A DNA stretch of 64,000 bases from Myxococcales bacterium. GTDB taxonomy: Bacteria > Myxococcota > Myxococcia > Myxococcales > UBA5297. Position 1 is the stretch's first letter. The number at the start of each line of letters is the position of its first letter. A program made the translations under genes and the position numbers. The notes beneath the pieces are model-generated. The model had not been told where the DNA came from. It saw only the letters and a list, made by a program, of their open reading frames with translations, and made no database searches. The stretch lies in contig JAVBMV010000007.1 in assembly GCA_031552145.1 (NCBI GenBank), forward strand, positions 226,486-290,485. Direction: 5' to 3'. This document shows positions 1 through 55,275 of the stretch, piece by piece.

Positions 1-3000
1 CGTTCCTGGGGTTCGTCTTCGATCTAACGCTGCGAGATGTGCCGGCCGCACCGGTGAACGACAAGTGCGAGAACGCAATGGATTTGGGGGTCATGAGACC
101 CAATGAGCCCTCGAGCCATATCGAGCTTGATATTGGTACGTTGGAGGGAGCGACGCGCGACCTGAAGGGAACTTCGGAGAAGGCCCTGGCGTCGCCCGGG
201 GTGGACGTCGTCTATAAGTTCAAGGTGGAAAATACCGTCGCCTTTAGAGCAAGAGTGACGAGCAGAGAGGATAGCTTGGCCGGCCCAACCCTGGTGCTGG
301 TCCAGTCCGATGATTGCGCGCCTAACGTGGAGCTCGCCACTGGATACTACGCCGCAACCAGACTGCCGTTCAACGCGCGTGGCGATACGCTCTTCCTGCC
401 GCGCAATCCGCTTTCATCTATGCCAGGGGCTGCGCTCATGCCGGGCACCTACTACCTCTATGTGGTTGCTACGACGCCCGTCGAAGGGGCCTTCTATCTG
501 GATCTCTCCGTTTATGAGACGGAGGACGAGGTTATCAACGGCAAGCCCACCTCTGTGGTCAAGGGGCGCTCCTGCGCCAAGGCGGTTCAGATCCCAATCG
601 ACGCGGCAACGGGTATTGGAACCATGCGCGCCGACACGGCAGGCGCCTTCGGAGTGGATAAAGCCCGCTCGCTCGACTGTATGTATATGTCGGCTGGCAG
701 TACGCCGGATCTCTTCTTCAAGTTCACGGTTCCCGCCGGGGGGCAGCGTGATGCCGAGATCGTCGTCGCCCCAGATCGCTATTCTGGACAGGCTCCTATC
801 ATCTACTTGCGCACCGACTGTGCCAATCCGCTCACCGAATTCTCCTGTGAAACGGTGAGCAGCACCTATGCGCCGGCCAAGATCACGCCCAAGCGGCTCG
901 CGGGTGGGGCGACCTACTTCCTCGTGGTCGACTCGGTCCTTCACGCGTTGACCGATTCCTACGCCATTGAGATTAAACTCACGGCTTCTGCCGCGGCCCC
1001 CGCCAACGACAAGTGTTCGGCTGCGCTCGTGGATATGGAGTTTGTAGAGAACATCGCCACGGCACAGGGAGACACCGCCGAAGCGACCGATGATTACCAG
1101 GGCTCCTGCTATAGCAGGGCCGTGAGCGGCAACGACCTGGTCTATCAATTCCAGTTGACCGAAAAGAAATATGACATCAAGGTAAGCGTGACCTCCACCG
1201 CCGACTTCGCGCCGGCGGCGTGCGTCAGGTCGACCTGTGACGCGACGGCGGCGGGCGAACTCGCCTGTTCCCGAGATATGGCGGAGCCTATCCTCGTCAA
1301 CAATCTGGCGCCGGGTAAATACTACGTCGTGGTCGACAGCGACCTGCGCCAGTCGTCGGGCCCCTTCACGCTTACGGTCGAGCGCATCGACGCCATTCCG
1401 CCTCCCGCCAATGATGTGTGCGGAGCTGGTGTAACGGGGCTCACCTTCGATGGGAGCAATATTGCATTCATTTCTGGCGAGTCGACAATCCGGGCAAATA
1501 ACGACACCGCGCCGCGGTGTACCCCCTATCCGACCGTCGCCGCCAGCCCCGATGTCTTCTACTCCTTCACTACCCCGGCAGCGACAGTCGACGCGCCCTC
1601 TTGGAAGGCGGTTGCCCGCGTTTTCCGGACGGGTTCTTACAGGCCCGCATCGCCCTACATCGCGGAGGTGGCGATCAGGTCGGTCTGTGACAGCAACGCG
1701 GCCGAGCACCAGTTGGGGTGCGGTTACGACCTTGGCTTCAACATTTCGACGAAGCCCGCGGGAGTCGGCGTCGCCATGGCGGTCGCGCCGAAGCTGTTGC
1801 CCTCGACGACCTACTATGTCGTCGTAGATGGCAGCATAAACACCTCGGGCACCTTCGACCTCGAAGTCCGCCTCTTCGATGGCGCCGATACCCCCGACAA
1901 CTGCGCGTCTGCCGAAACCCTCGATTTCTTAACGGGCGTCGAATCGATACGAGCCAGCACCTTCGGCGCGGTCAACGACTCCGCATCGAGTACGCTTGCA
2001 GCGGCCGCGAGTGCAGGTGCTGACGTGGTCTATCATGTCAAGCCATTGGCTCCCTCCGATTTGACGGTGAACCTGACCTTTGCCTCGACTTTCGCTGGCG
2101 CTACGCTCTATATACGCAAGGGCGTTTGCGCCAGTACCAATAAAACAGACGAGATCGCCTCTGCAGTGCGGGGCGGTGGTGGTCCTGTATCGTTGGTGGT
2201 GCCGGATCTGGTCGCAGGTACTGACTATTACATATGGGTGGACGGCGAGGCGGCCATGATGGGTGAGTACTGGCTCGACGCCGAGCTGATCCCAACGACG
2301 ACGGTGCCCACCAATGTCTCCTGCACGACGGCGACGCCCGTACCGATTAACAACGACGTCGGTTCCATCTCGGGTAGCACCTTGCGAGGCGCGAACACCA
2401 ATACGGCCAGTGGGATGTGCGGCGTGATGAACGGCAATGACCAGGTCTTCTCCTTCGAGATCAGTGGCACGGAGAACAGGAGCGTCAAGATCGAACTGGC
2501 TCCGGCGCTCTCCTCTCCGACCTTTGTGCCGAGTCTCTATCTGCGCAGCGGATGTGGTGGCGCGACTGAAAAGGCGCTGGGATGCGTACTCGGCGTAGCG
2601 GACACCACGACAAGGCTTTCGCGCTACGACCTCAGACCCGGCATCTACTATATCTACGTCGATAGCCCAACCGCGGGTATGGGTGGAGGCTTCGAGCTGA
2701 CGGTGACCTTGGGCAAGCCCATTGCCTATCCGGACACCTGTGACGAGGCCGTGAGCATCGCGCTCGATGAGGCTGGGAGGGCAACGGTCGTCGGTGATAC
2801 GACCGCCGCTACCAACGATTCCTATGGGTCGGTCGCTGGATGCGGAATGATGAGTGGCATAGTGCCGTATGGTGGCCCGGGGCGCTCGGGGCGAGATCTG
2901 GTCTACAAACTCGACACAACCACGCTCTCGGGCAACCGCGACCTCACGGCATCGCTCTTTGGTTCGACGGAGCGCGCGATGCAGCTCTACCTGAAGAGAA

Positions 3001-5951: not shown

Positions 5952-5988
5952 TGCTTGCGGCGGCGACTCGATGTCGCCGCCGCAAGCA
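5952..5988 (+). terminator. Strong hairpin directly after the giant-gene stop (16-bp perfect stem, 5-nt loop)
   Basis: TGCTTGCGGCGGCGAC (5952-5967) pairs perfectly with GTCGCCGCCGCAAGCA (5973-5988); loop TCGAT. No clear T-tract follows, so it is terminator-like rather than a canonical intrinsic terminator. Confidence 0.55.
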
Positions 5989-6048: not shown

Positions 6049-7053
6049 ATGTGTCGTCGGCGACTCTTCGCGCTGCGCTTTATCTTGCCGCTCTTCGCGG
6101 GCGCGCTGATGCAGCCTGCGCCCGCCCACGCCGGGAGGTTGCGCGTGCGCATCGACTTGTTGCCTTGTCCCCAGCGCGAGGCGATCGGGCGCGAGATCGA
6201 GGAGGGCGCGCAGGGGTTGCTTGAAGGCAGGGGAGAGCTGATGCTCGTGATTCTCCAAGAGTCGGAGGAGATGCTCCGAGTGCTGCTCTACGGCGCCCAG
6301 AGCCCCTTCGAGAAGCGGCTGCCCTTTACGGCGAAAGAGTGCGACGAGCTGCCGACGGTCGCGTCGCTTCTGCTGCAGAGCTGGCTGGGGATGAGCATCG
6401 ATGAGAAGGAGCCCGAGGAGGAGGCGCGCATGCCGGTCGAGAGCGAGCTCGCGATGCAGGAGGTGAGCGGAGAGGCCTCGACCTCGACCTGGACGCTCGT
6501 CGCCGCGCCACGCGCCGGAATCGCCGGAGGGTTAGGGGAGCAGTGGCAGTGGACGCCCTCGATGGCGCTGGGGCTGGGGCTGCGCGCTCCGACGCCCTGG
6601 CCCGAGGCGCTCTCGGGGAGCTGGGGGTTGGAGCTGGTCGGCCGATATGACGCGCCCTTCATCGCCAATAGCGCGCAGGGCTCGGTCCGCGCCGAGCTCT
6701 TCGCCCTGGCGCTCGAGGGGCTCTATTCGACCAACCTGGGAGAGTCGGTGCGGCTCTCCATGGCGGTTGGTCCCGCGCTGGAGTGGACCCATGGCTCCAC
6801 CTCCATCGCTGGAAGGAGCGAGGCGACGCTCACCAGCGCCGCGCTGGCCTGCGCGCTGGGGCTCACCGTGCCACTCAACGAGCGCCTCTCGCTCTCCACA
6901 TCGCTCGAGGCGCTGATGCGGCCGAGAGGGATCGCCTTTACTTACGGGCGCCGCGTCGGGCTGGAGCTGGCCCCCGTGCGGCTGGCGCTCCTGACCGGGC
7001 TCTCCTGGGATTTCGCTTCGGGCGGAGAGCGGCGAGGGGAGGACCGGCAATGA
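6049..7053 (+). CDS. Secreted hypothetical protein with a beta-strand-rich, outer-membrane-barrel-like C-terminal half
   Basis: Signal-peptide-like N-terminus MCRRRLFALRFILPLFAGALMQPAPAHA. The C-terminal half shows alternating-hydrophobic strands ending LLTGLSWDF near the terminus. The stop overlaps the next gene's ATG (ATGA, 7050-7053). Confidence 0.6.
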   Translation: MCRRRLFALRFILPLFAGALMQPAPAHAGRLRVRIDLLPCPQREAIGREIEEGAQGLLEGRGELMLVILQESEEMLRVLLYGAQSPFEKRLPFTAKECDELPTVASLLLQSWLGMSIDEKEPEEEARMPVESELAMQEVSGEASTSTWTLVAAPRAGIAGGLGEQWQWTPSMALGLGLRAPTPWPEALSGSWGLELVGRYDAPFIANSAQGSVRAELFALALEGLYSTNLGESVRLSMAVGPALEWTHGSTSIAGRSEATLTSAALACALGLTVPLNERLSLSTSLEALMRPRGIAFTYGRRVGLELAPVRLALLTGLSWDFASGGERRGEDRQ

Positions 7054-7673
7054 GCCAGGGGCCCGCGCGCGTCCGGTTGCTCAAGGTGGTGACGCCGCCC
7101 GCCGCTCTCCCGAAAGAGAGTGTCGAGTGCGTGGAGCGCGCTCCCCAGGGGCGGCCCGACATCTCGCGGCTCTACCAGGAGCAGAGCCCCATCATCCGGA
7201 AGCTTCTGGGGAGGCTTCTCGGCCCACACAGGGAGATCGAGGACCTGATGCAGGAGGTCTTCGTCGTCGCCCTGAAGAGGCTCCCGGCGTTGGAGCAGTC
7301 CGACTGCGCGCCCAGGCTCTGGCTTACGGGCATCGCGGTGCGGCTGGCGGCAAACGCCCGGCGAAAGCTCTGGTTCAAGAAGGTGCTGCTCGGCGATGGC
7401 GCCGAGGCCAATCGAGAGCTGGTCGAATGGCACACTCCCGAGTGGGCGCTCCAAGGGCTCGAGGAGGCGAAGCGCCTCTACGCGCTCTTGGGGACGCTCT
7501 CCGAGAAGCAGCGGGAGGTGGTTATCCTCTTCGAGCTGCATGGCATGAGCTGCGCCGAGATCTCGCAGGCGCTGGCCTGCCCCCTCAAGACGGTCTATTG
7601 GCGCCTCGATCAGGCCCGCGAAAAATTGATTAGGCGCAATGAAGCGACGCTGCGGCGTTGGACGACGACATGA
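7050..7673 (+). CDS. ECF-type RNA polymerase sigma-70 factor
   Basis: Region 2 (DLMQEVFVVALKRL...WLTGIAVRLAANARRK) and region 4 HTH (LSEKQREVVILFELHGMSCAEISQALACPLKTVYWRLDQAREKL). Start placed at ATG 7050 (MSQGPARV), because the track start at 6783 lies inside the preceding gene. Confidence 0.85.
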   Translation: MSQGPARVRLLKVVTPPAALPKESVECVERAPQGRPDISRLYQEQSPIIRKLLGRLLGPHREIEDLMQEVFVVALKRLPALEQSDCAPRLWLTGIAVRLAANARRKLWFKKVLLGDGAEANRELVEWHTPEWALQGLEEAKRLYALLGTLSEKQREVVILFELHGMSCAEISQALACPLKTVYWRLDQAREKLIRRNEATLRRWTTT

Positions 7674-9052
7674 GCGATCCGAGACGATTCATCGAGTACG
7701 AAACACCGGGACCGCAGGAGCGGCTGGGGCGCCTCATGCGCTCCGCCGAGCTGCTCCTGGAGCGAACCGAAGAGCGAGCCGAGGAGCTGCGCCGGGCGGG
7801 TACTCCCGCGCGGCGCCAACGGAGACCTGCGAGGGGGTGCAGGCTCTGGCCGCGTGCCGCCGCTGCCGTGGTCGCCGCGGCGGTGGCGCTCTGGGTTGGT
7901 CTGGTGCTCCGGGGTGCGCCCCCCGAGCCGGGCGGCGCCGAATTGGCGGCGGTTTCACAAGCGCGTATCGAGGCACCCGCGGACGAAGGGGCGCGCTGGA
8001 CCGAGATGGTTATCCAGGGGCTCGGCTCGTTCGAGCGCGAGTCGGCCCGCAATCTCGTGGTGGAGGAGCGCAGCGAGGCGCGCAGGATCGTAGTGGAGGA
8101 GGGATACTTTAGGGCGCAGGTCGACTCCCAGCCCATCGACAGGCCTCTGATCCTCGATACCCCACACCTGCGTGTCGTGGTAGTGGGGACGCGCTTCGAC
8201 CTCTTCGTCACCCCCGCTCGCACCGACGTCCTGCTCATCGAGGGGCGCGTGCGCATCGAGTCCCCCTTTGGACAGCTCTATCTCTCCGCGGGCGAGTCGA
8301 TCTCCTCCGACGATCCCAGGCTCGCGCCCCGCGAGCGCCCGGCCAGCGCCATCGACGAGGCCGCCGGCCCGATCGCTGGAGTCGAGCGGGTGCGCGCCAG
8401 AGCCTCCTCTCGTGCAGCGCATCAGGGCGCGCCGGCGACCCGGGCCCGCGTCAGCGCCAGCGCCAGCGCCGCGAGGGTGGCGAATCCGAGCGAGTTACAT
8501 CGGTCCGCGGCGGGTCACCTCTCGCCCGACGCGCCGCGCGCTGGGGTCGAGCCACTGCGCGAGCCGCTGTTGCCGGCGCGCGCGCGCGATTGCATCCTTC
8601 GCTCCACCGAGGAGGCAGTGCGCGCCTGCCTCGCGCGGCTCGCGAAGGGGGACGGGCTCTCGGCGCAGAGCGCGCTCTATCTTCTAGGCAAGCGCCTGGG
8701 CGTCGACCCAGAGCGCTACGCCGAGGCCATCGAGACCTTCCGCTCACTGCAGGAGCGCTTTCCGCGCGCGGTCTACCTGCCCGAGGCCAGCCTCGAGATC
8801 TTCGAACTCCAGCGCGCCAGGGGGGCGGTGGCCGAGGCGATTGCCACCGCCGCGCAGTTCGAGCTGCGCTTCCTGGATGACCCGCGCGTGCCGGAGGTGA
8901 AGCTCGCCCGCGCGCGCCTCATCTGCAACTCGGAGGAGGAGCGCCTGCGCGATCCCGAGCAGCTCGCAAGGCTCTTCGGTGAGCTGCACGCGCTCTCCAA
9001 CCTCGGGCTGCGCTTCGAGGCGGTGAGGCTGGAAGAGAGCTGCGGCAGGTAG
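7670..9052 (+). CDS. FecR-like anti-sigma factor (single-pass membrane protein)
   Basis: ATG 7670 overlaps the sigma-factor stop (ATGA). One hydrophobic helix (AAAAVVAAAVALWVGLVL). FecR-like segment LDTPHLRVVVVGTRFDLFVTPARTDVLLIEGRVRIESPFGQLYLSAGESI. The track start at 7658 is also possible. Confidence 0.7.
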   Translation: MSDPRRFIEYETPGPQERLGRLMRSAELLLERTEERAEELRRAGTPARRQRRPARGCRLWPRAAAAVVAAAVALWVGLVLRGAPPEPGGAELAAVSQARIEAPADEGARWTEMVIQGLGSFERESARNLVVEERSEARRIVVEEGYFRAQVDSQPIDRPLILDTPHLRVVVVGTRFDLFVTPARTDVLLIEGRVRIESPFGQLYLSAGESISSDDPRLAPRERPASAIDEAAGPIAGVERVRARASSRAAHQGAPATRARVSASASAARVANPSELHRSAAGHLSPDAPRAGVEPLREPLLPARARDCILRSTEEAVRACLARLAKGDGLSAQSALYLLGKRLGVDPERYAEAIETFRSLQERFPRAVYLPEASLEIFELQRARGAVAEAIATAAQFELRFLDDPRVPEVKLARARLICNSEEERLRDPEQLARLFGELHALSNLGLRFEAVRLEESCGR

Positions 9053-9146
9053 GGGCAGGTGGCGGCATTGGGGCGGGCAGGGTATAGGGTCTACCCCCGA
9101 CGCGGGCGACCCGCAGCAAGACCCACCTGCCCGCAGGAGCCACCAC

Positions 9147-12471: not shown

Positions 12472-15400
12472 CTAGGGCGTCGTTACATAGAGCTCGAATT
12501 GCCCCTTGGAGCTGTCAGCATCCACGATGATGAAGTAGGTGTGGTTTGGGATGGCGGGAGAGATGGTCACGCTTTTGGCCGAGGTGTTCGAGGTGAGCGT
12601 GGCGCCGACGCAGCTGTTTGCATCGTTGCAGCTCGAATTGACCGAGACGAAACCTGCCCAGTAGGTGCTGACGCGCGAGTTGTCGATCACGACGGTAAAG
12701 AGGGCACTTGTCTTGGGGGTGTAGCTGTAGACGAGGTCGGGTCCGTTGCCGTTCGAGGTTGCGGTGTAGCCGGCGTTGTAGGCCGCGCAGCCGTTGATCA
12801 AGGAGTCTGGTGCGGTCTGAAAGCCAGAGCGCGTCTTGCTGAAGGTGCTGTGGGCGTCGCTTGTCGAACCCATGACGGGGCGGTTGAGCTCGAGCGCGAT
12901 GGCGTCGCCGCAGGTCTGGTTTGGCGGAACGGAACCATCGGCCGCGGGGGTCTTCGTCAGTTCGACGCCGTAGGCCATCGCCGCCGTGGCGCTGATGCCG
13001 CCCTCGATAAAGAGGAAGTAGGTCCCCGGGGGCAGAGTGAGTGAGGTGGCCGTCGTCGGCAAGTTGGGGTTGCAATAGACCTCGGCGTCGCGGGACGTGT
13101 CAGTGCAGGCGGTTCGGATGTAGGCGTAGGCGGTGCCCGAGCTCTTCTTGAGTGTGAGGGTCGTCGTTCCAGTCAGCTCCAGCTTGTAGAGATCCTCCGC
13201 CATGGCCATGGAGGCGAGGCAGTGCCCGCCCGCGAAGCTCTCCGAGGTGGCCTGGGTGATATTCCTCGTGAGGGTGACCGTGCTCGTCGTGCTAGGTGGT
13301 GTGGGGGCTATCCAGTCGAGCGCGCCGAGGTTGTCGCAAGTGTAGTTCATGGGCTTGGCCGTCTCGGCCACGGTCGTGAGGGTGACGTTCAACCTGAAGC
13401 TGCCGAAGGCAGCCGTCGAGACGGAGTCGACCCACAGAAAGTAGGTGCCGACTGGGAGATACTGGTGGCTGAGCTTGCCCGTTCCCGTCGCGACGCCCTT
13501 GCGCCCGATGACATCGCCCTCCGTGCAGGCTGCTCTGAGGTAGAGGACCGGACTGACAAAGTTTGCCTCGATCTCCGAGAGGGAGGCCTCGAGCGACTTG
13601 GGCCCATCCTTGATCTCGAGGCTGTAGACCAGGTCGGCCCCCCACACATACTGATGCGTGCTGGTTCCGACGGAGAGTCGTGAGGAGTCGTTCCGCGCAA
13701 AGCGCAGGTCGCCCGTGGTGGTCGCGGTGAAGGGCCCTGTGCCCGAGAACTCCAGCTTCTCGGGCAAGGTGCAGTCGTCATTCGCGGCATAAGCGAAGGC
13801 GTCGGGCGCCGAGAGGGAGAAGTCGAGCCAGTAGGCGCCGGTATCGTTCGCGGCGTGGCTGTCGATCCAGAGGTACCACTTACCCGCGGGTACCAGGTGA
13901 ATATCGAGTGCCGCGGTGTTGGCCGAGGTGGGGGCGACACAGCCGAAAGAGGGGCTTGAGCTCGGTTCGTCGCAGCGCTTCAACAGGTAGAGGACGGGCC
14001 TAAAACCCGAGGCGACTGCGCTGACTCTGAGGTGCTGTGGCGTGGCGAAGTCGAGCTCATAGACGCGATCGGGCCCCTTCGCCACGGCGCAGGGCGCGGC
14101 GGAGCTATTGGAGCCCTCGTCGATCAGCCCGCTCACGACGGCGGAGCCGTTCGAGAAGGTCACCTTTCCCGCGTCGGGAAAGGGAGAGAGGCAAGTATCG
14201 TTCGCCGCGTAGCGGGGTGCGGGAGCGAGCGAGAGCTCGAGTTGGAAGGGGCCGACGGCCCCGACCTCTTCACTGTCGACGATGACATAGAGCAGCCCCG
14301 AGGTGGCGCGCGTTGCCGAAAGCGTGAGGGGTTGGCCTCGGCGTGCCGAGTTGAGACATGCCAGCTCTCCCGAGGGCGAGGCCGTGCAGTCATTCCTGAT
14401 GTAGAGGGTGGGGGCGAAGCTGGAGGAGAAGGGGGGCTCCTCGGGCGTCAGCGTCGCCGTGAGCCGATAGTTGGCCGGAACCATCACGGGGAAGGCGAGA
14501 TCGGGCCCCTTGGTGGCGTAGCAACTTCCCTCTTGCTGATGCGTCCCCAGCTCTATTCCGGGCAGGTGGAGCGTGCGGCGCCCCGAGGAGTCGATGGCGA
14601 TCGGCTCGGCGCCTGGGTCGCAGAGATCGGGGATGCCCACGGTGGGCGCGTCGAAGGTGAGCGTCAGCGCGAAGAGCGCGCTCTTCGCGTCGGGCGGCGT
14701 CGTGGTCGAGCCCGCGATGAGCCAGTAGTTCCCGGGCGCCAAGGAGTGGAGCGACAGCGTCGCCCTTCCGCCCGCCGGGGCGCTGCAGCCGCGCTCGTCG
14801 GCCCACGTGGCGCTGTCGCATGAGCCAGCGCGGAGCGTCAGTGACGGGAGCAGCGCGCTCTCCATCGCCTCCATCGTCGCGGTAAGCGAGCGCGCTCCCG
14901 CGATGGCCGGGATCGTGAAGGCGTAGACAATGTCGCGACCGTTCGTCGCGGCGCAGGAGCCCTGGTAGTTGGCGCTGGCGCCGCGCAGCGTTCCGCGCAG
15001 CACGTTGGTGCCCGACATATCCAGGCCGGAGATCGGGATGCCCGGACAGAGATCGCCGGAAGCCGCGCCGTAACGTACGCTCGCGTGGAGCGTGAAGGCG
15101 CCGCTCTGGGTCGGGGTGTAGCTGTCGACGATGACGCGATACTGGGACTGGCCTCTCATCGGCACCTGATAGACGAGCACCGCGGGGAGGGCGCGCGTGC
15201 CCGGCAGCGCGCAACGCGGATCCCGCGCCTCGCTGAAGCAGTTGGCGGAAATGTCCGTGGAGAGCGACAGGACCGGGAACATGGCGGTGCTGGTGTCGGC
15301 CTGTACGGAGAGCTCGATTGTTGCCGCGGAGAGCGCCAGCCTCTCGGGATCCAGTTCGAGCGCATACACGATGTCGCTACCGGAGGCGGCCTTGCAGCCA

Positions 15401-18400
15401 GTATGGCCATGGTCGACTTCGATCGCGGTGTCGCCCATCAGCGTCGCCTGATCTTCGTGCAGCTCGATCTTGATCGGTGCTTCGCAGCTCCCTCCGACTG
15501 GCAAGAGCTCTACCGCGATGTCGAAGCGCGTCCTGACGGTGGCGCTCATCGAGTCGAGCCAGAGGTAGTAGTCGCCGGGGCTTTGCAGGGTGGTACGGAG
15601 CATCGCCTTCGCGCCGGTCGTCACCCTGGAGCAGAGCTCTCCCGCCGTCGTGGTGCAGGTCGTTCGCCGCAAGATGATTGCCGCGCCCGAGGTCGAGCCG
15701 TCAATCGTCGCGGTGATGAGGAGATCGGCTGGCATGGGGAGCTCGGGGATGGAGAGCTTGTAGATGTTCTCGACACCGGGGAGCGATCGCTGGAGCGCCG
15801 AGGTGTTGCAGGCATCGAGCGACGCGAGGGTGTTCTGCGCGGAGGCGTCGTTGAAGCCAAAGAACGAGAGCTTTCCATCGGTTAGCGTCAGCGGCGTAGC
15901 CTCGGCCTCGGCGCAGGACATGTTGGTACCCGTTGCCAGCGCTACCTCGAGCGCGTAGACGTCCCCCTCCGCGGAGAGGCCATCGACGATGATGAAGTAG
16001 GTCCCCTCGATGAGCGAGCTGATCGAGGCGCGCTTCGTCGCGCCCGCCGCCACCTCGGCGAAGGCGAGCTCATCGGCCGCCGCGCCTGAATCGCAGCTCT
16101 TGCGCAGGTAGAGCGCCAGGGCGAGGCCGGGCTTCATCGATTGATTGGTGAGCTGAGTCGAGAGGGTGTAGCGCTTCCCGGCGGGGACCACCACAGAGTA
16201 GATGGCCTCCCCTCCCGGCGTGGGTTTGGTTGAGGAGCTTTGTGTTCCAACCAGTCCGAAGGTGCTCCCTGTCAGATGCTGGCTGCCGATGATGCTCGGG
16301 GTGCCGGCAGCCCCCTCCCGCAGCACCTGCGTCGCGCTGGCGCAGGTGGCGTTGGTCTGCGGCGGCGGCGCTTCGTCGCTCTCGATGCGCAGCTCAAAGG
16401 CGCCGCGCAGCGGACTCACCGAGTCGACGATCAGGTAGTAGATGGCGGGCGTCAGGTTGCCCTGGAGCGTGACGGGGCCACCCCGCTCCGAGGCCGAGGC
16501 CATCAGCTCCTCCTCGGGCAGCGCGTCTTCACAAGTGCCCTTGCGCAGGTAGAGAAGCGCCTCGCCGTCGAAGGAGGAGAAGGCCGCCGTCGCGGTGAGA
16601 TGCTTGGGCGAACCCTGAACCTCGAATCGGTAGATCAGATTGCCGCCATTGCCCTTTGCCAGCTTCAGGGAGGCGAGGGTGTTCGCGGCGAAGGTGGTGT
16701 CGCCCGGAATCGTCAGGAGGCCCGGCGCGATGGGCAGCGAGATGGGCTCGGCCGCCGCGCAGGAGTCGGGAAGGCGCGAAGCGAGTGGCGTCAGTGAGAG
16801 ATCGAGCGAGAAGGAGCCGGCGGAGTTGGAGCTGCCATCGACGATGAGGAAGTAGTTGCCGCCGGCCATGAAGGCGTCGAGGGTCACCATTCCCGGCGTC
16901 GCACTCTCGGCGGAGCAGGCCAGCTCGGCATGGGTGTCGAGGCTCGCGCACTGCCCGTCGCTGCGTAGGTAGAGCGCCGGGCTATAGGCTACATCGTTGG
17001 TGTGGGCGCGAATGGTGAGCCGACCGGGCTCGCCGACCGCGATCTTGTAGACCAGATCGGGACCATCGAGCGGCGCGTCGACCTTGCCGCAGGTGCCGCG
17101 GTAGTCGGCGCGCGCGTTGGCCGTCGTGGCGTTGAGCACCTGGGCGCGAAAGCTGGGCGCCGCGAGCGAGAGGCTCTGTGGCGTGGAGCAGGTGTCGTTC
17201 GCGGGAGCGATGCCGGCGTCGACGCCCTCAACCTTCAGCTCGAACTTCCCTTCCTTCTCTTCCAGAGAGTCGACGAAGAGGTAGTTCTTCCCCGTGACGT
17301 TGGGGAGCGTGAGTACGAGCGGGCTGGAGACGCCGCCGACGCGGCATGCGCGCTCCTCCGCCAAGGCGCCGCAGCCAGAGCGCACATAGAGGATCGGCAC
17401 ATACTTCGCTTCCTGGGGCGTCAGCGTGATGGTGAGCGTCTTTACCGCGCTGCCCAGGTCGACCAGATAGACCAGCTCGGCGCCCGTGGAGTCGGCGCGA
17501 CAACCCGCCACCGAGTCGTGAGTGGCGTTGGCGGTGCTGGCGATGGCGTTGTCGCCCAGGGCGAGGTCGGCCGCATCTTCACAGAGGTCGTTCCAGTCGA
17601 TGCCGGAGAGTTCGAGCGCGATCTCTAGGTCGAAGAGCCCTTCGCTCCCCGCGGCGCTGTCGACGACCAAGATCCAGCTGCTGCCCGGCGCACGCCGCGC
17701 GGCGCTCGCCTCCGCTTTTCCGCCATCGAGGGATGCACAGGTCAACTCGCTGCCCTGCTCCTCGCAGTTCCTGCGCAGCGAGAGCGTGGGGATGAGCGCG
17801 CTGCCGGGGCGCGGCGTGACGGTGGCCTTCAGGTTGTAGGTGGCGTCATTGGGGAGATTGAGCTTCCAGAGCAGCTCTCGGCCCGAGCTACCAGCGCCAC
17901 AGGAAGCGCTTCCCAGACTCGCGCTGCCGAAGGAGGTGTCGGAGATGGCGGTGTAGATCAGCTCCGTGGGGGAGAAGGTCACCTCACGCACCGTGGAGCA
18001 GGTGCCATTGTCGGCGCGCGGCAGAAGCGCCGCCTGGAGCATGAAGGCGCCCTCCGAGCGGTCGGCTCCATCGACGACGAGGTACCAGCTACTGCCCGCG
18101 GCGAGCTCGGGCGCGTGGAGGATGGTGTAGGCGCGCCGCGCGGTGTTGGGGGCGCATGCGGTTGCCCCGGTCCCAGGCGCGCACTCCGGTACCAAATAGA
18201 GCGCGGGTCTGTAGCCGCTGCTCGGCTCCGCGGCGTCGACGCGGGCGACGAAGGAGGAGGGCTCGTTGACGCTGAAGTGAAAGCTCACCTCTCCGCCCGA
18301 GTTGGGCAGGCAGGAGGGGGAGAGGTCATTGCGCGCGTCGACGTTGGTGCCGCTTTCGCTGGCTAAGCCCTCGGGATCGAAGGTGAGCGCGATGGAGGTT

Positions 18401-20541
18401 GTGGGGCCGCAGCTGTCGCCCGCGGGCGCGGCGCCTCGCTCCGGTAGCTCCACTTCCAGGTTGAAGTACCCCGAGCGTTCGCCGCCCAGCTCGTCGTTGG
18501 CGCTATCGACGACGAGGAAGTAGGTGCCGGGCGCCAGCCCGAAATAGCCACCCGTGATTGGCGCGGCTTCCTCTCCACGCACGCACTTGGTCGTTCGTGC
18601 ACAAAAGAGCGTGGAGTCGATATCGTCGCAGGCAGTGCGCAGTGAGATGATTGGGCAATAGTTTGAAAGAACGCTCGGCGCAAGGCTGTAGCGGACGGTC
18701 CTGTCTCGCCCCTCGGGCACGACGAAGGAGTAGACCAAGTCGCGCCCGTTAGCCGAGGCGCAGGGCGAGGAGAAGGCGTCGGTTGCCCCCGCGGTAGTGC
18801 CGCTCTTGAAGGCCGTGGGGGTGAGGCTGGTAGGAGGCGAGGTGAGGAACTCCAGCGGGGCCATCGAGCTATTGCAGATGTCGTTGTAGATGGGCGCGCC
18901 GAAGGAGACCTCGAGCGCGAAGTCGCCGCCACCGAGGGTGCCGCCCACACGAAGCATGATCGCTTCACCGGCCGAGAGAAGCGGAACGAAGAGTTCCGCC
19001 GCGATGGGCTGGTTGGGAGTTCGTCCCTCGATGTAGCCCGCCTTAGGGCCCACATCGCAGAGCCGCTCCTCGCCTGCCTCGTTCAATAATGCAAGTCCGG
19101 GAAACCATGGGTTGGCCCAGTAGAAGTCGGAATAGTTCCTTGGCGCCTTGGGGATGAGAGAGGCATGTATGCTGACGTCGGCTTCGAGCGAGAAGGGGAA
19201 GAAGACGTCGCTGCTGGTGAGCGCGCAAGCGCCAGGATTGGATCGCGGTTCGACACTGGCAAGCGCCGTGGAGCCTTCGATGTTGAGCAGCGACTCGCCC
19301 GCTACTACCGTGGGCTGCAGCTCATAGGTCTGCTCGAGGGAATCGTTCTCGGGAGAGGGCTGTTCCTCGGCGGTGATTGTAACCCGCATCTTTCCGGTGC
19401 CGAAGCCGCTTGCGGGGTGGCCCTGCCCAATCCAGAGGTAGACGGTGCCGGGGCCGACGCCGGCGGCGCGCAGCTTGATCGGGTTGCTGTTGGTGAAGGC
19501 AGAACAGGCGAGCTCCAGATCGTGCGTCAGCGAGTGGTCGAGACACTCGGAGGTGAGATGCAGGTAGGGGATGACGCCGCTCTCGGGGAAGCCCTCTACT
19601 ACGAGCCGGCTCGGCCGCTCCAGCGCGATGGCGTAGACGACGTCATTGTTGTAGCTCTGCAGGCAGGAACCCTGTCTGTTCTTGGTCGCGCCCCGCGTGT
19701 CGACCTCGAACTCCACATATCCCTCGATCAACGTGAGTGGCTCGGCCTCGCCGCAACCGTCGTTGCCGGGAGCCGCGGTCGTGGGTTGGCAGGCGTGGTT
19801 GACGCACCGGCTCGTGCCCTCACAGGAGGTGCCGAGCAGCGCGGCGCAATCGACCTTTCGCGGCGCTCCGCAGTTGTCGAGCCCCTGGTATGGATAGGTG
19901 CCGCACTCCTTGCCATTGCGTTGGCAGAAGAGCGTGTCCGACTCGGGCGGGCAGACACAGGTGTTGTCGATGCAGTCGTTATTCGGAGCGGTGCAAGTGT
20001 CGGGACAGGCGACGTCGCGTTCGGTGCCGCAGGCGTCGGTCGTCAGAAGCCGGCCACACGCGACACTGAAGGCCGTGCAGAGCGCCGAGTCGGCAGGTGG
20101 CTTGCAGCAGGATCCCTTGCCCGCTCCCGCGGTGCAGAGCTCCGCGCTGTCGCAGGTGTTGGGGCAGTCGTAGGTGCGTTGGTCGCCGCACAGGTTCTGC
20201 CCGCTGTATTTGCCGCAGATTACGCCGTGCCGTTCACAGAACTCCTCGCGCGACTCCTCTTCGCATTTGGAGACGCACTGCTGCTCCGCGTCGCACTCTT
20301 CGTTTGCGCCGCAAGGACCGCATTCCCCGTCGCAGCCATCGTCGCCGCATTCTTTCCCCGCACAGTCGGGGATGCATTCGGGGCCCGTGTCCGCGTCGGC
20401 TCCCACATCAGTGTCGCCCTTGAGGCCCACATCGCCCGTGTCGGAAGGGGGGAAGGGGTCGCTGGGGCTTGCGGGGCCGCAGCTGCTGGCGCCGAGCGCG
20501 CAGGTCAGGAGTGCTGCTATCGAGATAAGGGTCGTACGCAT
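12472..20541 (-). CDS. Giant lipoprotein: ~256-aa Cys-rich head plus 17 tandem four-Cys PPC-like modules (2689 aa)
   Basis: ATG at 20541 is preceded by AAGGAGAAGCG. Lipoprotein signal MRTTLISIAALLTCALGASSCGP. The head contains CGDDGCDGECGPC and 3 x FCxRxGxxCG...CG...DC units. Then 17 modules with the same skeleton as gene 1-5945, e.g. DLVYKI...PALYLRSDGQC...ELACS...GGNYFLIVDGSSNSAGSFSLDLSL. The track start at 20586 adds 15 implausible residues. Confidence 0.9.
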   Translation of the reverse strand: MRTTLISIAALLTCALGASSCGPASPSDPFPPSDTGDVGLKGDTDVGADADTGPECIPDCAGKECGDDGCDGECGPCGANEECDAEQQCVSKCEEESREEFCERHGVICGKYSGQNLCGDQRTYDCPNTCDSAELCTAGAGKGSCCKPPADSALCTAFSVACGRLLTTDACGTERDVACPDTCTAPNNDCIDNTCVCPPESDTLFCQRNGKECGTYPYQGLDNCGAPRKVDCAALLGTSCEGTSRCVNHACQPTTAAPGNDGCGEAEPLTLIEGYVEFEVDTRGATKNRQGSCLQSYNNDVVYAIALERPSRLVVEGFPESGVIPYLHLTSECLDHSLTHDLELACSAFTNSNPIKLRAAGVGPGTVYLWIGQGHPASGFGTGKMRVTITAEEQPSPENDSLEQTYELQPTVVAGESLLNIEGSTALASVEPRSNPGACALTSSDVFFPFSLEADVSIHASLIPKAPRNYSDFYWANPWFPGLALLNEAGEERLCDVGPKAGYIEGRTPNQPIAAELFVPLLSAGEAIMLRVGGTLGGGDFALEVSFGAPIYNDICNSSMAPLEFLTSPPTSLTPTAFKSGTTAGATDAFSSPCASANGRDLVYSFVVPEGRDRTVRYSLAPSVLSNYCPIISLRTACDDIDSTLFCARTTKCVRGEEAAPITGGYFGLAPGTYFLVVDSANDELGGERSGYFNLEVELPERGAAPAGDSCGPTTSIALTFDPEGLASESGTNVDARNDLSPSCLPNSGGEVSFHFSVNEPSSFVARVDAAEPSSGYRPALYLVPECAPGTGATACAPNTARRAYTILHAPELAAGSSWYLVVDGADRSEGAFMLQAALLPRADNGTCSTVREVTFSPTELIYTAISDTSFGSASLGSASCGAGSSGRELLWKLNLPNDATYNLKATVTPRPGSALIPTLSLRRNCEEQGSELTCASLDGGKAEASAARRAPGSSWILVVDSAAGSEGLFDLEIALELSGIDWNDLCEDAADLALGDNAIASTANATHDSVAGCRADSTGAELVYLVDLGSAVKTLTITLTPQEAKYVPILYVRSGCGALAEERACRVGGVSSPLVLTLPNVTGKNYLFVDSLEEKEGKFELKVEGVDAGIAPANDTCSTPQSLSLAAPSFRAQVLNATTANARADYRGTCGKVDAPLDGPDLVYKIAVGEPGRLTIRAHTNDVAYSPALYLRSDGQCASLDTHAELACSAESATPGMVTLDAFMAGGNYFLIVDGSSNSAGSFSLDLSLTPLASRLPDSCAAAEPISLPIAPGLLTIPGDTTFAANTLASLKLAKGNGGNLIYRFEVQGSPKHLTATAAFSSFDGEALLYLRKGTCEDALPEEELMASASERGGPVTLQGNLTPAIYYLIVDSVSPLRGAFELRIESDEAPPPQTNATCASATQVLREGAAGTPSIIGSQHLTGSTFGLVGTQSSSTKPTPGGEAIYSVVVPAGKRYTLSTQLTNQSMKPGLALALYLRKSCDSGAAADELAFAEVAAGATKRASISSLIEGTYFIIVDGLSAEGDVYALEVALATGTNMSCAEAEATPLTLTDGKLSFFGFNDASAQNTLASLDACNTSALQRSLPGVENIYKLSIPELPMPADLLITATIDGSTSGAAIILRRTTCTTTAGELCSRVTTGAKAMLRTTLQSPGDYYLWLDSMSATVRTRFDIAVELLPVGGSCEAPIKIELHEDQATLMGDTAIEVDHGHTGCKAASGSDIVYALELDPERLALSAATIELSVQADTSTAMFPVLSLSTDISANCFSEARDPRCALPGTRALPAVLVYQVPMRGQSQYRVIVDSYTPTQSGAFTLHASVRYGAASGDLCPGIPISGLDMSGTNVLRGTLRGASANYQGSCAATNGRDIVYAFTIPAIAGARSLTATMEAMESALLPSLTLRAGSCDSATWADERGCSAPAGGRATLSLHSLAPGNYWLIAGSTTTPPDAKSALFALTLTFDAPTVGIPDLCDPGAEPIAIDSSGRRTLHLPGIELGTHQQEGSCYATKGPDLAFPVMVPANYRLTATLTPEEPPFSSSFAPTLYIRNDCTASPSGELACLNSARRGQPLTLSATRATSGLLYVIVDSEEVGAVGPFQLELSLAPAPRYAANDTCLSPFPDAGKVTFSNGSAVVSGLIDEGSNSSAAPCAVAKGPDRVYELDFATPQHLRVSAVASGFRPVLYLLKRCDEPSSSPSFGCVAPTSANTAALDIHLVPAGKWYLWIDSHAANDTGAYWLDFSLSAPDAFAYAANDDCTLPEKLEFSGTGPFTATTTGDLRFARNDSSRLSVGTSTHQYVWGADLVYSLEIKDGPKSLEASLSEIEANFVSPVLYLRAACTEGDVIGRKGVATGTGKLSHQYLPVGTYFLWVDSVSTAAFGSFRLNVTLTTVAETAKPMNYTCDNLGALDWIAPTPPSTTSTVTLTRNITQATSESFAGGHCLASMAMAEDLYKLELTGTTTLTLKKSSGTAYAYIRTACTDTSRDAEVYCNPNLPTTATSLTLPPGTYFLFIEGGISATAAMAYGVELTKTPAADGSVPPNQTCGDAIALELNRPVMGSTSDAHSTFSKTRSGFQTAPDSLINGCAAYNAGYTATSNGNGPDLVYSYTPKTSALFTVVIDNSRVSTYWAGFVSVNSSCNDANSCVGATLTSNTSAKSVTISPAIPNHTYFIIVDADSSKGQFELYVTTP

Positions 20542-20801
20542 CGCTTCTCCTTGCGAGAGAACACATTTGCCCACCGTGTCGCACACTTGTGGCTATCACA
20601 GGCGCAGGAAGGAGAGAAGCGTGGGGGAACGGTGCCGAGAAGAGATGCCAAATCATTGCCCGCGGCGGCGCCAAGCTCCAATTCGCGGATTGAGCGTTGA
20701 GGCGGAAGCCATATTCCAATGACGATTGCCCTGTCTGCGAAAATCCCCTAACATCCCTCGTTTCACATGCTGTGAGGATGCTGGATAGAGCGGGAGTGAA
20801 C

Positions 20802-35842: not shown

Positions 35843-35899
35843 GCCCACGAAGAAATGTGAAGAAACGTGGAGAGGTGCGGGAGCCCAGTGGAATCTGCA

Positions 35900-36655: not shown

Positions 36656-36657
36656 CG

Positions 36658-43956: not shown

Positions 43957-43975
43957 CGGGTATACTCCCGCGATC

Positions 43976-55100: not shown

Positions 55101-55275
55101 TGTCGCCTCCGAAACGTGTGCAGCCGATGAAGTCGCCGGTACGCCGACGATGATGTAACCGCGGAAGTAGAGCACAAGCGGAGGGTCGATGTGAAGAGAT
55201 GTAGGAGAGGGAGGCCACCGCCTCCGGGCGCATAGATGTAGGGCTGGCGGGAAGATGAGCGCGGAGACAGGAGGC

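What the first reader, a model, noticed from the sequence alone, without database searches (positions are those of the whole stretch)
12472..20541. Giant lipoprotein family built from at least 38 divergent copies of one ~135-aa four-cysteine (PPC-like) module
Three genes consist almost entirely of head-to-tail copies of one module. Gene 1-5945 has 13 modules and its 5' end lies outside the window. Gene 12472-20541 is complete with 17 modules. Gene 59852 onward has 7 full modules plus 1 partial, with its 3' end outside the window.

The module skeleton is [PA]-x-N-D-x-C-x2-A ... G-[ST]-T-x2-A-x-[ND]-D ... C ... G-x-D-[LV]-V-Y-x-[FL] ... P-x-[LI]-Y-[LIV]-R-x2-C ... E-L-x-C ... L-x-[PA]-G-x-Y-[YF]-[LI]-x-V-D-[SG] ... 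G-x-F-x-L-x-[VL]. An example module is 1005-1409, with a 405-nt period.

Only this skeleton and the 4 Cys are conserved. The connecting segments differ in every copy, and I saw no long DNA-level identity between copies. That looks like an old, selectively maintained array rather than a recent amplification.

The N-D-x4-A start and the G-x-Y-Y-x-x-V ... G-x-[FY]-x-L end resemble bacterial pre-peptidase C-terminal (PPC, PF04151-type) beta-sandwich domains. I cannot assign the central P-x-LYLR-x2-C / ELxC two-disulfide core, or this giant tandem architecture, to a described family.

About 18 kb (28%) of the window encodes this module. The lipoprotein signals predict envelope or surface exposure. 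The simplest readings are a beads-on-a-string fibre or a multivalent recognition array in which each module has its own variable surface.
Basis: partly seen in the sequence, partly recalled or inferred. Interest (0 to 1): 0.8.

Follow-up and report, generated by a model that had tools for sequence, protein, structure and literature searches.

The report
Giant lipoproteins of tandem PPC-like modules
An uncultured myxobacterium encodes three roughly 280 kDa lipoproteins, each a chain of 16-17 very divergent copies of one disulfide-stapled beta-sandwich module; the module belongs to a domain family that is already catalogued but has no known function, so this is a real, uncharacterised envelope fibre rather than a new fold.

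Summary
A profile grown from one module finds exactly 38 modules in the window: 13, 17 and 8 in the three genes. One of the 17 is degenerate. Per-module E-values run from 1e-10 to 1e-39. Mean pairwise identity is 24%, and there is no DNA-level tandem repeat.

The "PPC-like" call is right. AlphaFold gives pLDDT 93, and the best solved matches are collagenase PPC/collagen-binding domains.

The module is not orphan, however. It is a divergent Myxococcota branch of Pfam PF23759 (GBD_T9SS_assoc). Profile-profile comparison gives 97.9% probability with all four Cys aligned. That family also forms 16-17-copy arrays in Bacteroidota T9SS cargo proteins. About 16,000 cluster representatives carry the module, and about 1,500 carry many copies.

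New points from this work:
- Module order is collinear between 16-17-module homologues, so the array is ancient and each position has its own identity.
- C1 and C3 are invariant, while C2 and C4 are lost together.
- A three-module model has pTM 0.74, which suggests a semi-rigid rod.

Function is unknown. The most likely reading is an envelope-anchored fibrillar binder. I rate it a new variant of a known kind, of moderate interest.

The parts
1..5945 (+). Gene g1, 3' 1980 codons (frame of position 3). This is the C-terminal three quarters of database protein P0011 (2635 aa, 16 modules). The lipoprotein start (MPRHLMISLLLSSALLFGAC) lies outside the window.
57..5468 (+). g1 modules 1-12 in the window. 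Boundaries are 57-506, 564-974, 1005-1379, 1410-1868, 1893-2282, 2313-2705, 2730-3158, 3210-3608, 3639-4106, 4140-4541, 4572-5024 and 5058-5468.
   Evidence: E 2e-17 to 5e-39; boundaries.
5532..5930 (+). g1 terminal module, a divergent 'cap' variant with short C3-C4 spacing and an extra Cys. The protein ends 5 residues later.
   Evidence: E 2e-10. It pairs with the terminal modules of the paralogues.
12472..20541 (-). Gene g2, complete, 2689 aa, about 280 kDa, pI 4.55. It equals P0001. It has no Pfam or NCBIfam assignment at curated thresholds.
20479..20541 (-). g2 lipoprotein signal peptide, ending in the lipobox Cys21 (LGASS-C). This Cys aligns with the canonical lipobox Cys of four paralogues.
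19765..20478 (-). g2 N-terminal stalk. It consists of an acidic D/G/P-rich linker, one CxPxCxGKxCGxDGCxGxCGxC motif, and three copies of a ~45-aa FCxRxGxxCG..DxCG..R..C..C..C repeat. It has no Pfam or NCBIfam match.
19387..19764 (-). g2 module 1
   Evidence: E 3e-26
18961..19338 (-). g2 module 2, degenerate. It lacks the invariant C1 and C3 and keeps C2/C4-like Cys.
   Evidence: (E 0.03-0.6)
12961..18885 (-). g2 modules 3-16. Boundaries are 18451-18885, 18031-18420, 17620-18009, 17230-17592, 16798-17199, 16384-16770, 15943-16353, 15511-15924, 15082-15495, 14659-15060, 14233-14631, 13819-14202, 13384-13782 and 12961-13329.
   Evidence: E 7e-15 to 2e-29; boundaries.
12484..12921 (-). g2 module 17, the terminal 'cap' variant. 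The protein ends 3 residues later, with no C-terminal sorting signal.
   Evidence: (E 9e-20)
59852..64000 (+). Gene g3, 5' 1383 codons. This is the N-terminal half of P0008 (2668 aa, 17 modules).
59852..59911 (+). g3 lipoprotein signal peptide (MRSFPKFLSLTLLVASLTA-C)
59912..60697 (+). g3 N-terminal acidic linker and Cys-rich repeats, the same organisation as in g2.
60698..64000 (+). g3 modules 1-8. Boundaries are 60698-61072, 61106-61498, 61553-61945, 61970-62371, 62399-62797, 62828-63247, 63272-63649 and 63680-64000. The last is cut by the window end.
   Evidence: E 2e-17 to 6e-30; boundaries.
6049..9052 (+). Cassette directly downstream of g1. [quoted passage not shown] Paralogous cassettes lie directly upstream of other giant genes of the family elsewhere.

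Best explanation
The three genes encode envelope-anchored giant lipoproteins of a Myxococcota bacterium.

Each has four parts in order:
- an N-terminal lipid anchor;
- an acidic linker;
- a short disulfide-rich stalk;
- a chain of 16-17 modules joined by 6-14-residue Pro-rich linkers, ending with a distinct terminal module.

The modules are PPC-like jelly-roll modules of about 130 aa. They form a divergent branch of Pfam PF23759 within the galactose-binding-domain-like/PPC superfamily.

Each module is stapled by an invariant C1-C3 disulfide and usually a second C2-C4 one. The conserved residues build the hydrophobic core. The conserved N-terminal N-D and the D of GxDLVY probably form the PPC-type Ca2+ site. 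The outward-facing strand positions and the loops differ in every module.

The chain most likely forms an extended, fairly stiff fibre tens of nanometres long. It would act as a fibrillar binder or adhesin, presenting a fixed, ordered series of different surfaces and a paralogue-specific tip.

Whole-gene duplication followed by long divergence has produced several paralogues. About half of those examined are wired to their own ECF sigma / FecR-like anti-sigma pair.

What is shown: the module count, the fold, homology to PF23759, the lipobox, the Cys pattern, collinearity and the cassette linkage.

What is inferred: the disulfide pairing, Ca2+ binding, rod shape, surface exposure and a binding function.
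For: - Module count and statistics.
- Fold: AlphaFold pLDDT 93.2, pTM 0.89 from the 34-module alignment. Foldseek top hits are collagenase PPC/collagen-binding domains 5sv5, 1nqd, 2o8o and 5iku (E 5e-5 to 2e-4, TM 0.5-0.67). The profile search of PDB sequences also ranks collagenase CBDs first.
- Family: hhalign of the window modules against Bacteroidota PF23759 modules gives 97.9%, E 3.9e-13, over 121 columns with all four Cys aligned. PF23759 whole-protein scores are 59.2 (g1) and 63.3 (g3) against a cut-off of 27.
- Lipoprotein: the lipobox Cys is aligned in five paralogues. A lipobox-like motif is present in 101 of 116 complete N-termini among the top representatives.
- Disulfides: C1 and C3 are present in 100%/99% of 1163 modules. 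C2 and C4 are co-lost (Fisher p 3.5e-5 in the window, 3e-17 overall).
- Scaffold with variable surface: conservation alternates along the strands and the loops are variable, with insertions confined to five loops.
- Stiff chain: the three-module model has pLDDT 87.5 and pTM 0.74. Linkers are 6-14 aa and Pro-rich.
- Ancient ordered array: best-hit module order is collinear with P0002, P0003, P0010, P0013, P0015, P0028 and P0031 (longest increasing run 9-12 against a null of about 5, p<0.0005). Copy number peaks at 15-17 among representatives.
- Terminal module: it pairs with the terminal modules of all paralogues.
- Precedent: a PPC-repeat fragment acts as a free-standing matrix/coat component in a myxobacterium (FibA/Protein C, PMC3236237).
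- ECF/FecR linkage.
Against: - No experimental datum bears on localisation, expression or ligand.
- No surface-export signal is identifiable. The +2 residue is Asp in g1 (the inner-membrane retention signal in E. coli rules), so some members could stay in the periplasm.
- The rod inference rests on one pTM value. I had no PAE and no coordinates.
- No separate adhesive tip domain exists. The tip is just a divergent module, and it is the least conserved module between paralogues.
- Identical protein sequences were recovered from two samples, so there is no sign of the rapid diversification often seen in recognition proteins.
- The genomic neighbourhoods of g2, g3, P0002, P0010 and P0015 are unrelated housekeeping genes and give no functional hint.
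Confidence: 0.45

Rival explanations
1. Multivalent capture array. Every module is itself a ligand-binding unit (CBM-like or collagen-binding-domain-like) with its own specificity. The protein would work as a polyvalent binder of polysaccharide, matrix or prey-envelope polymers, rather than as a stalk carrying a tip.
For: The fold is that of collagenase collagen-binding domains, and CBM6/CBM36 and other galactose-binding-domain-like modules appear lower in the list. Each array position keeps its own identity across homologues. The surfaces are variable and the core is conserved.
Against: No conserved surface-exposed aromatic or polar patch is evident beyond the N-D/T/D positions shared by all modules. 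Position-specific identity is only 25-49%, which is what simple orthology would give. No CAZyme, PUL or transport genes are nearby.
Confidence: 0.2
2. Signalling partner. The giant lipoprotein is the extracytoplasmic input, or the dedicated output, of a paralogue-specific ECF sigma / FecR-like anti-sigma pair. This would be analogous to FecA-FecR-FecI cell-surface signalling, but without a TonB-dependent transducer.
For: The cassette [unknown secreted ~330 aa]-[ECF sigma]-[FecR-like] lies directly upstream of the giants P0003, P0013, P0020 and P0018, with gaps of 0-43 bp. It lies directly downstream of g1 and of a second giant in L090. The cassette proteins are paralogous at 27-45% identity. 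The anti-sigma factor has a large periplasmic part with a TPR-like end.
Against: Five of about eleven giants examined (g2, g3, P0002, P0010, P0015) have no cassette nearby. In the window the cassette is followed by an M2/M3-type peptidase lipoprotein, not by a giant, and a hairpin separates it from g1. I found no shared promoter-like motif upstream of the giants. Co-transcription only shows co-regulation, not signalling.
Confidence: 0.15
3. Matrix or coat building block. The chain is released or processed, and its PPC-like modules self-assemble into an extracellular matrix, S-layer-like coat or spore cuticle. This would parallel the two-PPC fragment of FibA (Protein C) in Myxococcus xanthus.
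For: PMC3236237 shows PPC repeats accumulating in the matrix and spore cuticula of a myxobacterium. The proteins here are acidic and disulfide-rich with no enzymatic domain. Several paralogues were recovered from the same two samples.
Against: A lipid anchor and a conserved copy number of 16-17 with conserved order are not expected of a self-assembling coat monomer. There are no recognisable processing sites.
Confidence: 0.1
4. Artefact or decaying genes. The long ORFs are antisense or high-GC artefacts, or pseudogenes without function.
For: High-GC genomes give long spurious ORFs. One of 2056 aa (57188-63358, minus strand) overlaps g3 here.
Against: The coding-strand third-position GC is 0.84. 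There are 38 in-frame profile matches with no frameshift or stop. About 1,500 multi-copy homologues exist, and the architecture is conserved.
Confidence: 0.01

Closest known systems
Pfam PF23759 (GBD_T9SS_assoc, 'galactose binding domain-like'), as seen in Bacteroidota T9SS cargo proteins such as P0087 and P0106
   Same: It is the same module. The length is about 130 aa, and the start (NDxCxxA), the G.T/AT.S turn, the D.(V/W)Y.F strand, the G.(T)YY.(R/V)V strand and all four Cys align (hhalign 97.9%). It also has the same habit of forming 16-17 head-to-tail copies.
   Different: Anchoring and export differ. The Bacteroidota proteins have an ordinary signal peptide and a C-terminal Por_Secre_tail sorting domain. 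The window proteins have an N-terminal lipobox plus a Cys-rich stalk and nothing after the last module.

The Bacteroidota copies are far more alike: mean column identity is 49% in A2 against 25% in A1.

Individual window modules fall below the Pfam threshold, and g2 is not detected at all. The function of PF23759 is not described in anything I could search.
Bacterial pre-peptidase C-terminal domain (PPC, PF04151) / collagen-binding domains of clostridial collagenases ColG and ColH (PDB 1nqd, 2o8o, 5iku, 3jqw, 5sv5)
   Same: The jelly-roll fold is the same. The sequence signature at both ends is shared (N-D start, D..Y.F strand, G.YY..V and G.Y.L strands). From my recollection of the ColG structures, the N-D and the D before the Tyr are Ca2+ ligands that stiffen the inter-domain linker. 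This was not tested here.
   Different: There is no peptidase in the protein, and there are 16-17 copies instead of 1-3. Two disulfides are present that the collagenase domains lack. Sequence scores are below the PF04151 threshold for single modules (13-19 bits against 25.9). TM-scores are only 0.5-0.67.
FibA / Protein C of Myxococcus xanthus (PMC3236237)
   Same: Both are myxobacterial. In FibA, PPC repeats are found on their own in the extracellular matrix and spore cuticula, which shows a structural, non-protease role for such domains.
   Different: FibA is an M4 metalloprotease with two canonical PPC domains released by processing. It is not a lipoprotein array.
Fibrillar adhesins and giant repeat adhesins of Gram-negative bacteria (stalks of tandem Ig-like/BIg domains, e.g. 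RTX ice-binding adhesin; from general knowledge)
   Same: Both have a long chain of one repeated beta-sandwich domain, a cell anchor at one end, an acidic character and a probable Ca2+ dependence.
   Different: Those stalks are usually near-identical repeats at the DNA level, exported by T1SS/T5SS or sortase, and carry distinct adhesive tip domains. Here the repeats are 24% identical and position-specific, and the anchor is a lipid.

Membership tests
Pfam PF23759 GBD_T9SS_assoc | Whole-protein score at or above the curated gathering score (27 bits) | tested here: inconclusive
   g1 scores 59.2 bits and full-length g3 (P0008) scores 63.3 bits. g2, the focal gene, gets no PF23759 hit at E<=1. 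The best single module scores 23.6 bits, and 7 of 34 modules reach E<=0.1.
Pfam PF23759 GBD_T9SS_assoc | Homology of the module over its full length to bona fide members | tested here: met
   hhalign of A1 (34 window modules) against A2 (12 modules of P0087/P0106, which score 547-874 bits on PF23759) gives probability 97.9%, E 3.9e-13, over 121 aligned columns. C1-C4 are aligned.
Pfam PF23759 GBD_T9SS_assoc | Association with type IX secretion (C-terminal Por_Secre_tail sorting domain), as the family name implies | tested here: not met
   The window proteins end 3-5 residues after the last module and have no PF18962 hit. They carry a lipobox instead. GyrA places the organism in Myxococcota.
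PPC, PF04151 (bacterial pre-peptidase C-terminal domain) | Score at or above the gathering score (25.9 bits) | tested here: not met
   Whole-protein scores are 13.4 bits (g2) and 19.5 bits (g1). Single modules score at most 14.9 bits. Only P0008 sums to 34.1 bits, without any single stretch passing.
PPC, PF04151 (bacterial pre-peptidase C-terminal domain) | PPC / collagen-binding-domain jelly-roll fold | tested here: met
   Ranks 1-8 in Foldseek against PDB are collagenase PPC/CBD chains (E 4.6e-5 to 1.8e-4, probability 1.00, TM 0.51-0.67). The model has pLDDT 93.
PPC, PF04151 (bacterial pre-peptidase C-terminal domain) | Located C-terminal to a secreted peptidase and removed on maturation | tested here: not met
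   No peptidase domain is found in any of the three proteins.
PPC, PF04151 (bacterial pre-peptidase C-terminal domain) | Ca2+ site formed by the N-terminal N-D and acidic residues before the conserved Tyr | not testable with these tools
   N1, D2 and D44 are among the most conserved polar positions. No coordinates or ion modelling were available.
Bacterial lipoproteins (SPase II substrates) | N-terminal signal peptide ending in a lipobox [LVI][ASTVI][GAS]-C | tested here: met
   g3 has LTA-C, P0011 (g1) has FGA-C, and g2 has the atypical ASS-C. The g2 Cys aligns with the lipobox Cys of four paralogues. A permissive pattern is present in 101 of 116 complete N-termini. No dedicated predictor was available.
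Fibrillar adhesins (stalk of tandem domains + anchor + adhesive tip) | Long stalk of one repeated domain plus a cell anchor | tested here: met
   There are 16-17 tandem modules covering 79-85% of the protein, plus a lipobox.
Fibrillar adhesins (stalk of tandem domains + anchor + adhesive tip) | Distinct adhesive domain at the distal end | tested here: inconclusive
   The last module is a recognisable sub-type that pairs with the last module of every paralogue. It has the same fold family, though, and no known adhesive domain is detected.
Myxococcus cysteine-rich repeat proteins (TIGR02232-type, e.g. TraA; recalled from memory) | Match of the N-terminal Cys-rich region to the NCBIfam/TIGRFAM repeat model | tested here: not met
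   There are no NCBIfam hits at E<=0.1 for g2 or g3. There is no Pfam hit for the g3 N-terminus.

The most novel reading that the evidence does not exclude
Each giant lipoprotein is the extracytoplasmic probe of its own ECF sigma / FecR-like anti-sigma unit. It would be a fixed-length, 16-17-module rod whose ordered, paralogue-specific surfaces detect a particular external polymer or contact (prey, kin or matrix). It would relay this to the anti-sigma factor. That would be a form of cell-surface signalling that needs no TonB-dependent transducer. The multiplied paralogues would form a sensory repertoire comparable to the many SusC/SusD or FecIRA sets of other phyla.
Probability: 0.1. Interest if true: 0.8.

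Novelty: new variant of a known kind. Interest (0 to 1): 0.45.

Why it matters
Roughly 16,000 protein clusters in public data carry this module, and about 1,500 carry it many times. No member has a known function, a solved structure or a mention in the searchable literature.

The focal 2689-aa protein receives no annotation at all from Pfam or NCBIfam at curated thresholds.

Several results turn an anonymous giant ORF into a tractable object:
- The Myxococcota lipoproteins and the Bacteroidota T9SS cargo arrays are built from the same module.
- The 16-17-copy array is ancient, ordered and length-conserved.
- Many copies are tied to dedicated ECF sigma/anti-sigma pairs.

Concrete hypotheses follow: a Ca2+-stiffened fibre, position-specific binding surfaces, and sigma-factor control.

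The profile of 34-38 divergent modules would also improve detection of the family. If the proteins prove to be surface fibres of predatory or social bacteria, they would be candidates for prey or kin contact.

Tried and rejected
- Searching species-representative genomes with the module alignment failed because no stretch was conserved enough.
- Searching them with g2 found no relative, so the source genome is not among the representatives. I therefore used GyrA for taxonomy. None of the 80 GyrA loci carries the module.
- The word-indexed protein search with the module alignment returned one hit only. The same search with g2 returned six, with no source names. The exhaustive profile search was the informative one.
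- An alignment of overlapping three-module segments (A3) was discarded, because MAFFT aligned the identical overlaps out of register. I replaced it with non-overlapping triples (A4).
- Foldseek of the three-module model found only per-domain matches (TMq <=0.28), so there is no template for the inter-module geometry.
- A profile search of PDB sequences with the Bacteroidota modules gave only a PPC domain of a metalloprotease at E 0.05.
- A k-mer comparison of upstream regions found no shared promoter-like motif.
- tblastn against plasmids found no match.
- Literature searches for PF23759, PPC arrays in Myxococcota/T9SS and ECF-FecR contexts found nothing on this family.
- Rejected: assignment of the N-terminal Cys-rich region to the TIGR02232-type myxococcal repeat (no hit).
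- Rejected: the pseudogene/artefact reading.
- Rejected: a pre-peptidase role (no peptidase domain).
Full report
**What is in the sequence**

The window has about 65% GC. It holds three very long ORFs with coding-type third-position GC (0.84 for the middle one):
- 3-5945 (+), whose 5' end is outside the window;
- 12472-20541 (-), complete, 2689 aa;
- 59852->64000 (+), whose 3' end is outside the window.

A six-frame scan of all 64 kb with the same profile returns those 38 and nothing else.

Independent E-values are 2e-10 to 5e-39, with one exception. The second module of the middle gene (18961-19338) is degenerate and has lost the two invariant cysteines.

Over match columns the modules are on average 23.6% identical, with a maximum of 37%. 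Tandem Repeats Finder detects no repeat with a period near 400 nt.

**The complete proteins**

The middle gene is identical to database protein P0001. The first gene is the last 1980 residues of P0011 (2635 aa, 16 modules). The third gene is the first half of P0008 (2668 aa, 17 modules).

All three have the same plan:
- a signal peptide ending in a lipobox Cys;
- an acidic D/G/P-rich linker;
- a Cys-rich region made of one CxPxCxGKxCGxDGCGGxCGxC motif and two or three ~45-aa FCxRxGxxCG..DxCG..R..C repeats;
- the module chain.

The proteins end 3-5 residues after the last module. The inter-module linkers are 6-14 residues and rich in Pro. The proteins are about 280 kDa with pI about 4.5. The N-terminal region has no Pfam or NCBIfam match.

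**What the module is**

Against Pfam, single modules give sub-threshold hits to PPC (PF04151, at most 15 bits) and better ones to PF23759, GBD_T9SS_assoc (best 23.6 bits against a threshold of 27; 7 of 34 modules at E<=0.1).

At the whole-protein level, g1 reaches 59 bits and g3 reaches 63 bits on PF23759. The focal g2 gets nothing but 13 bits on PPC. NCBIfam has nothing.

AlphaFold2 with the 34 window modules as its alignment gives a confident nine-strand beta-sandwich (pLDDT 93.2, pTM 0.89). The best solved matches are the PPC/collagen-binding domains of Bacillus and clostridial collagenases (E 5e-5 to 2e-4, TM 0.5-0.67). These are followed by PliG, the C-terminal domain of C. perfringens enterotoxin, and CBM6/36-type modules. 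A profile search of PDB sequences likewise puts collagenase CBDs first, at E about 0.02.

The exhaustive profile search of 1.84 billion cluster representatives finds 15,986 proteins at E<=1e-3 and 1,521 at E<=1e-30. Almost all of the best 150 share one plan: lipobox, Cys-rich start, then 4-23 modules, ending right after the last one.

A few are different. P0087 and P0106 are Bacteroidota-type proteins with an ordinary signal peptide, 16-17 copies that score 547-874 bits on PF23759, and a T9SS C-terminal sorting domain.

I compared twelve modules cut from these two proteins (A2) profile-to-profile with the window modules. The result was 97.9% probability, E 3.9e-13, over 121 columns, with the NDxC start, the D.(V/W)Y strand, the G.YY.V strand and all four Cys in register.

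The module is thus a divergent Myxococcota branch of a catalogued family, and that family is already known to Pfam in giant tandem form. It does not supply a function. PF23759 appears nowhere in the searchable literature. No related paper turned up, and no member has a solved structure.

**Finer anatomy**

Among 1163 full-length modules, C1 and C3 are present in 100% and 99%. C2 is present in 72% and C4 in 82%.

In the window, 18 modules have both C2 and C4, 9 have neither, 4 have C4 only and none has C2 only. Fisher p is 3.5e-5 in the window and 3e-17 overall. I infer an obligatory C1-C3 disulfide and a facultative C2-C4 one.

Column conservation alternates along the strands, as expected for inward-facing core residues. 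It is low in the loops, and insertions are confined to five loop positions.

The best-conserved polar residues are N1, D2, T24, D44 and D111. From my recollection of the ColG collagen-binding domain, the equivalents of N1/D2 and D44 are Ca2+ ligands that stiffen the N-terminal linker. That is a lead, not a result.

A three-module segment (g2 modules 6-8) was predicted with an alignment of 22 non-overlapping triples. It gives pLDDT 87.5 and pTM 0.74. That pTM is much higher than three independently tumbling domains should give, so the chain is probably fairly stiff. No solved multi-domain structure matches the arrangement.

**Evolution of the array**

For each g2 module, the most similar module in a homologue tends to occupy the same ordinal position. 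Twelve of 16 lie exactly on the diagonal for P0002, with a +1 offset for P0003, P0010 and P0013.

The longest increasing run of best hits is 9-12, against a permutation mean of about 5 (p<0.0005). This holds for seven homologues and is significant at p<0.01 for several more.

The terminal module pairs with the terminal module in every paralogue, including the otherwise non-collinear g1. Copy number among the top representatives has one mode at 5-8 and another at 15-17.

The 16-17-module chain therefore existed before these genes diverged to about 30% identity, and it has kept its length and order since. It also argues that length and position matter.

**Genomic setting**

GyrA (43934-46744) is at most 79% identical to any species-representative genome. 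The nearest are uncultured Myxococcales/Myxococcaceae MAGs, and g2 itself has no relative among those genomes.

The three genes sit among housekeeping and unrelated genes:
- g2 lies between an AAA/DUF4143 ATPase gene and a divergently transcribed Lcl_C-domain protein.
- g3 is divergent from RCC1/CPL1-like repeat proteins and is followed by lptC/A/B-rpoN.

One association does recur. [quoted passage not shown] Paralogous copies of this trio (27-45% identity) appear in four other loci:
- immediately upstream of the giants P0003 and P0013, with gaps of 28 and 43 bp;
- a sigma/FecR pair between two giants in L090;
- a FecR-like gene before P0018 and an "unknown" homologue after it.

Five other giants have no such neighbour: g2, g3, P0002, P0010 and P0015. 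All of these giants were recovered from the same two sequencing runs. I could not establish whether they all belong to one genome. Three certainly do, because they share this window.

**Interpretation**

What is shown:
- a family of intact, giant, disulfide-rich lipoproteins;
- construction from an ordered chain of PPC-like/PF23759 modules with a conserved core and variable surfaces;
- wide distribution;
- frequent linkage to dedicated ECF sigma/anti-sigma pairs.

What I infer is an envelope-anchored, extended and fairly stiff fibre that works as a fibrillar binder. The chain would provide reach and an ordered set of surfaces, and the divergent terminal module would provide paralogue-specific contact. 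The low identity between neighbouring modules is what one expects of long tandem arrays selected against inter-domain misfolding (general knowledge).

A myxobacterial precedent exists for PPC repeats acting structurally outside a protease: FibA's two-PPC fragment, Protein C, in the matrix and spore cuticula (PMC3236237).

The main rivals are:
- a polyvalent capture array in which each module binds;
- a sensor or output arm of the adjacent ECF/FecR unit;
- a released matrix/coat subunit.

None is excluded, and the first two overlap with the preferred reading. Surface exposure is not established. The +2 residues are Gly, Glu and Asp, and sorting rules for this lineage are unknown to me.

**Verdict**

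It is wrong that the module and its giant tandem architecture lie outside described families.

It is best filed as a new, lipoprotein-anchored, highly divergent Myxococcota variant of the PF23759/PPC-like domain arrays, with unknown function. I put interest at about 0.45. The case is not a new kind of system. It is, however, a large, unannotated and entirely uncharacterised family, and this analysis yields specific, testable structural and regulatory hypotheses for it.

Noticed in passing
window 6049-10913 (+); also L084 3111-5889, L087 1532-4315, L090 4297-6001, L093 2-967 and 8600-9652: A recurrent paralogous cassette lies beside many giant lipoprotein genes. [quoted passage not shown] In the window it follows g1 and is itself followed by an M2/M3-type peptidase lipoprotein (9147-10913) rather than by a giant.
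   Followed up: partly
window 5953-5987: A perfect 15-bp GC-rich inverted repeat (GCTTGCGGCGGCGAC ... GTCGCCGCCGCAAGC) lies 8 bp after the g1 stop codon, without a following T-run. It may be a transcript-end or stabilising hairpin separating g1 from the sigma cassette.
   Followed up: no
window 20697-22487 (+): This protein is divergently transcribed from g2. It has two Lcl C-terminal domains (PF07603, 187 bits) and weak NCBIfam similarity to fimbrial tip adhesin FimD and leptospiral surface adhesins. It is another probable surface protein next to the giant gene.
   Followed up: no
window 50946-55295 (-), 55965-56672 (-), 57188-59659 (-): A second family of large secreted repeat proteins lies upstream of g3. 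There are two proteins with CPL1-like Cys-rich repeats plus RCC1/WD40_RLD beta-propeller repeats (1449 and 823 aa). A small protein between them has a weak autotransporter beta-domain hit.
   Followed up: no
window 57188-63358 (-): This 2056-aa ORF is real only in its first part (57188-59659, the RCC1 protein). The rest runs antisense through g3 and is a high-GC artefact.
   Followed up: yes
window 11095-12342 (+), 40105-41277 (-), 32120-33583 (+), 37581-39134 (+): Four stand-alone ATPase genes of two related kinds sit in one 64-kb window: AAA_14+DUF4143 twice, and ATPase_2/AAA_16 with DUF234 or HTH twice. That is an unusual density, and their function is unknown.
   Followed up: no
window 28237-30350 (+): A HipA-like kinase gene (HipA_C, 167 bits) is immediately followed, with overlapping stop and start, by an N6/N4 DNA methyltransferase gene.
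   Followed up: no
window 59852-59970 versus protein P0005: The first ~38 residues of g3 (signal peptide, lipobox and start of the linker) are nearly identical to those of P0005, a 1979-aa 12-module family member. The rest of the two proteins is only ~25% identical. This suggests either exchange of the 5' end or strong constraint on it. P0005's contig could not be retrieved.
   Followed up: partly
proteins P0034, P0049, P0053, P0054, P0067, P0072, P0081, P0083, P0114 (not in the window): A subclass of shorter family members (5-11 modules) carries a conserved extra C-terminal region of ~225-255 aa. One gave a weak Ig-like (Glyco_hydro2_C5) hit. Others (P0129, P0130) have a different ~257-aa tail with no Pfam hit.
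   Followed up: partly
window 34901-37500 (+): An ordinary znuA-like/ABC ATPase/ABC-3 permease metal-uptake operon, recorded only for completeness.
   Followed up: no
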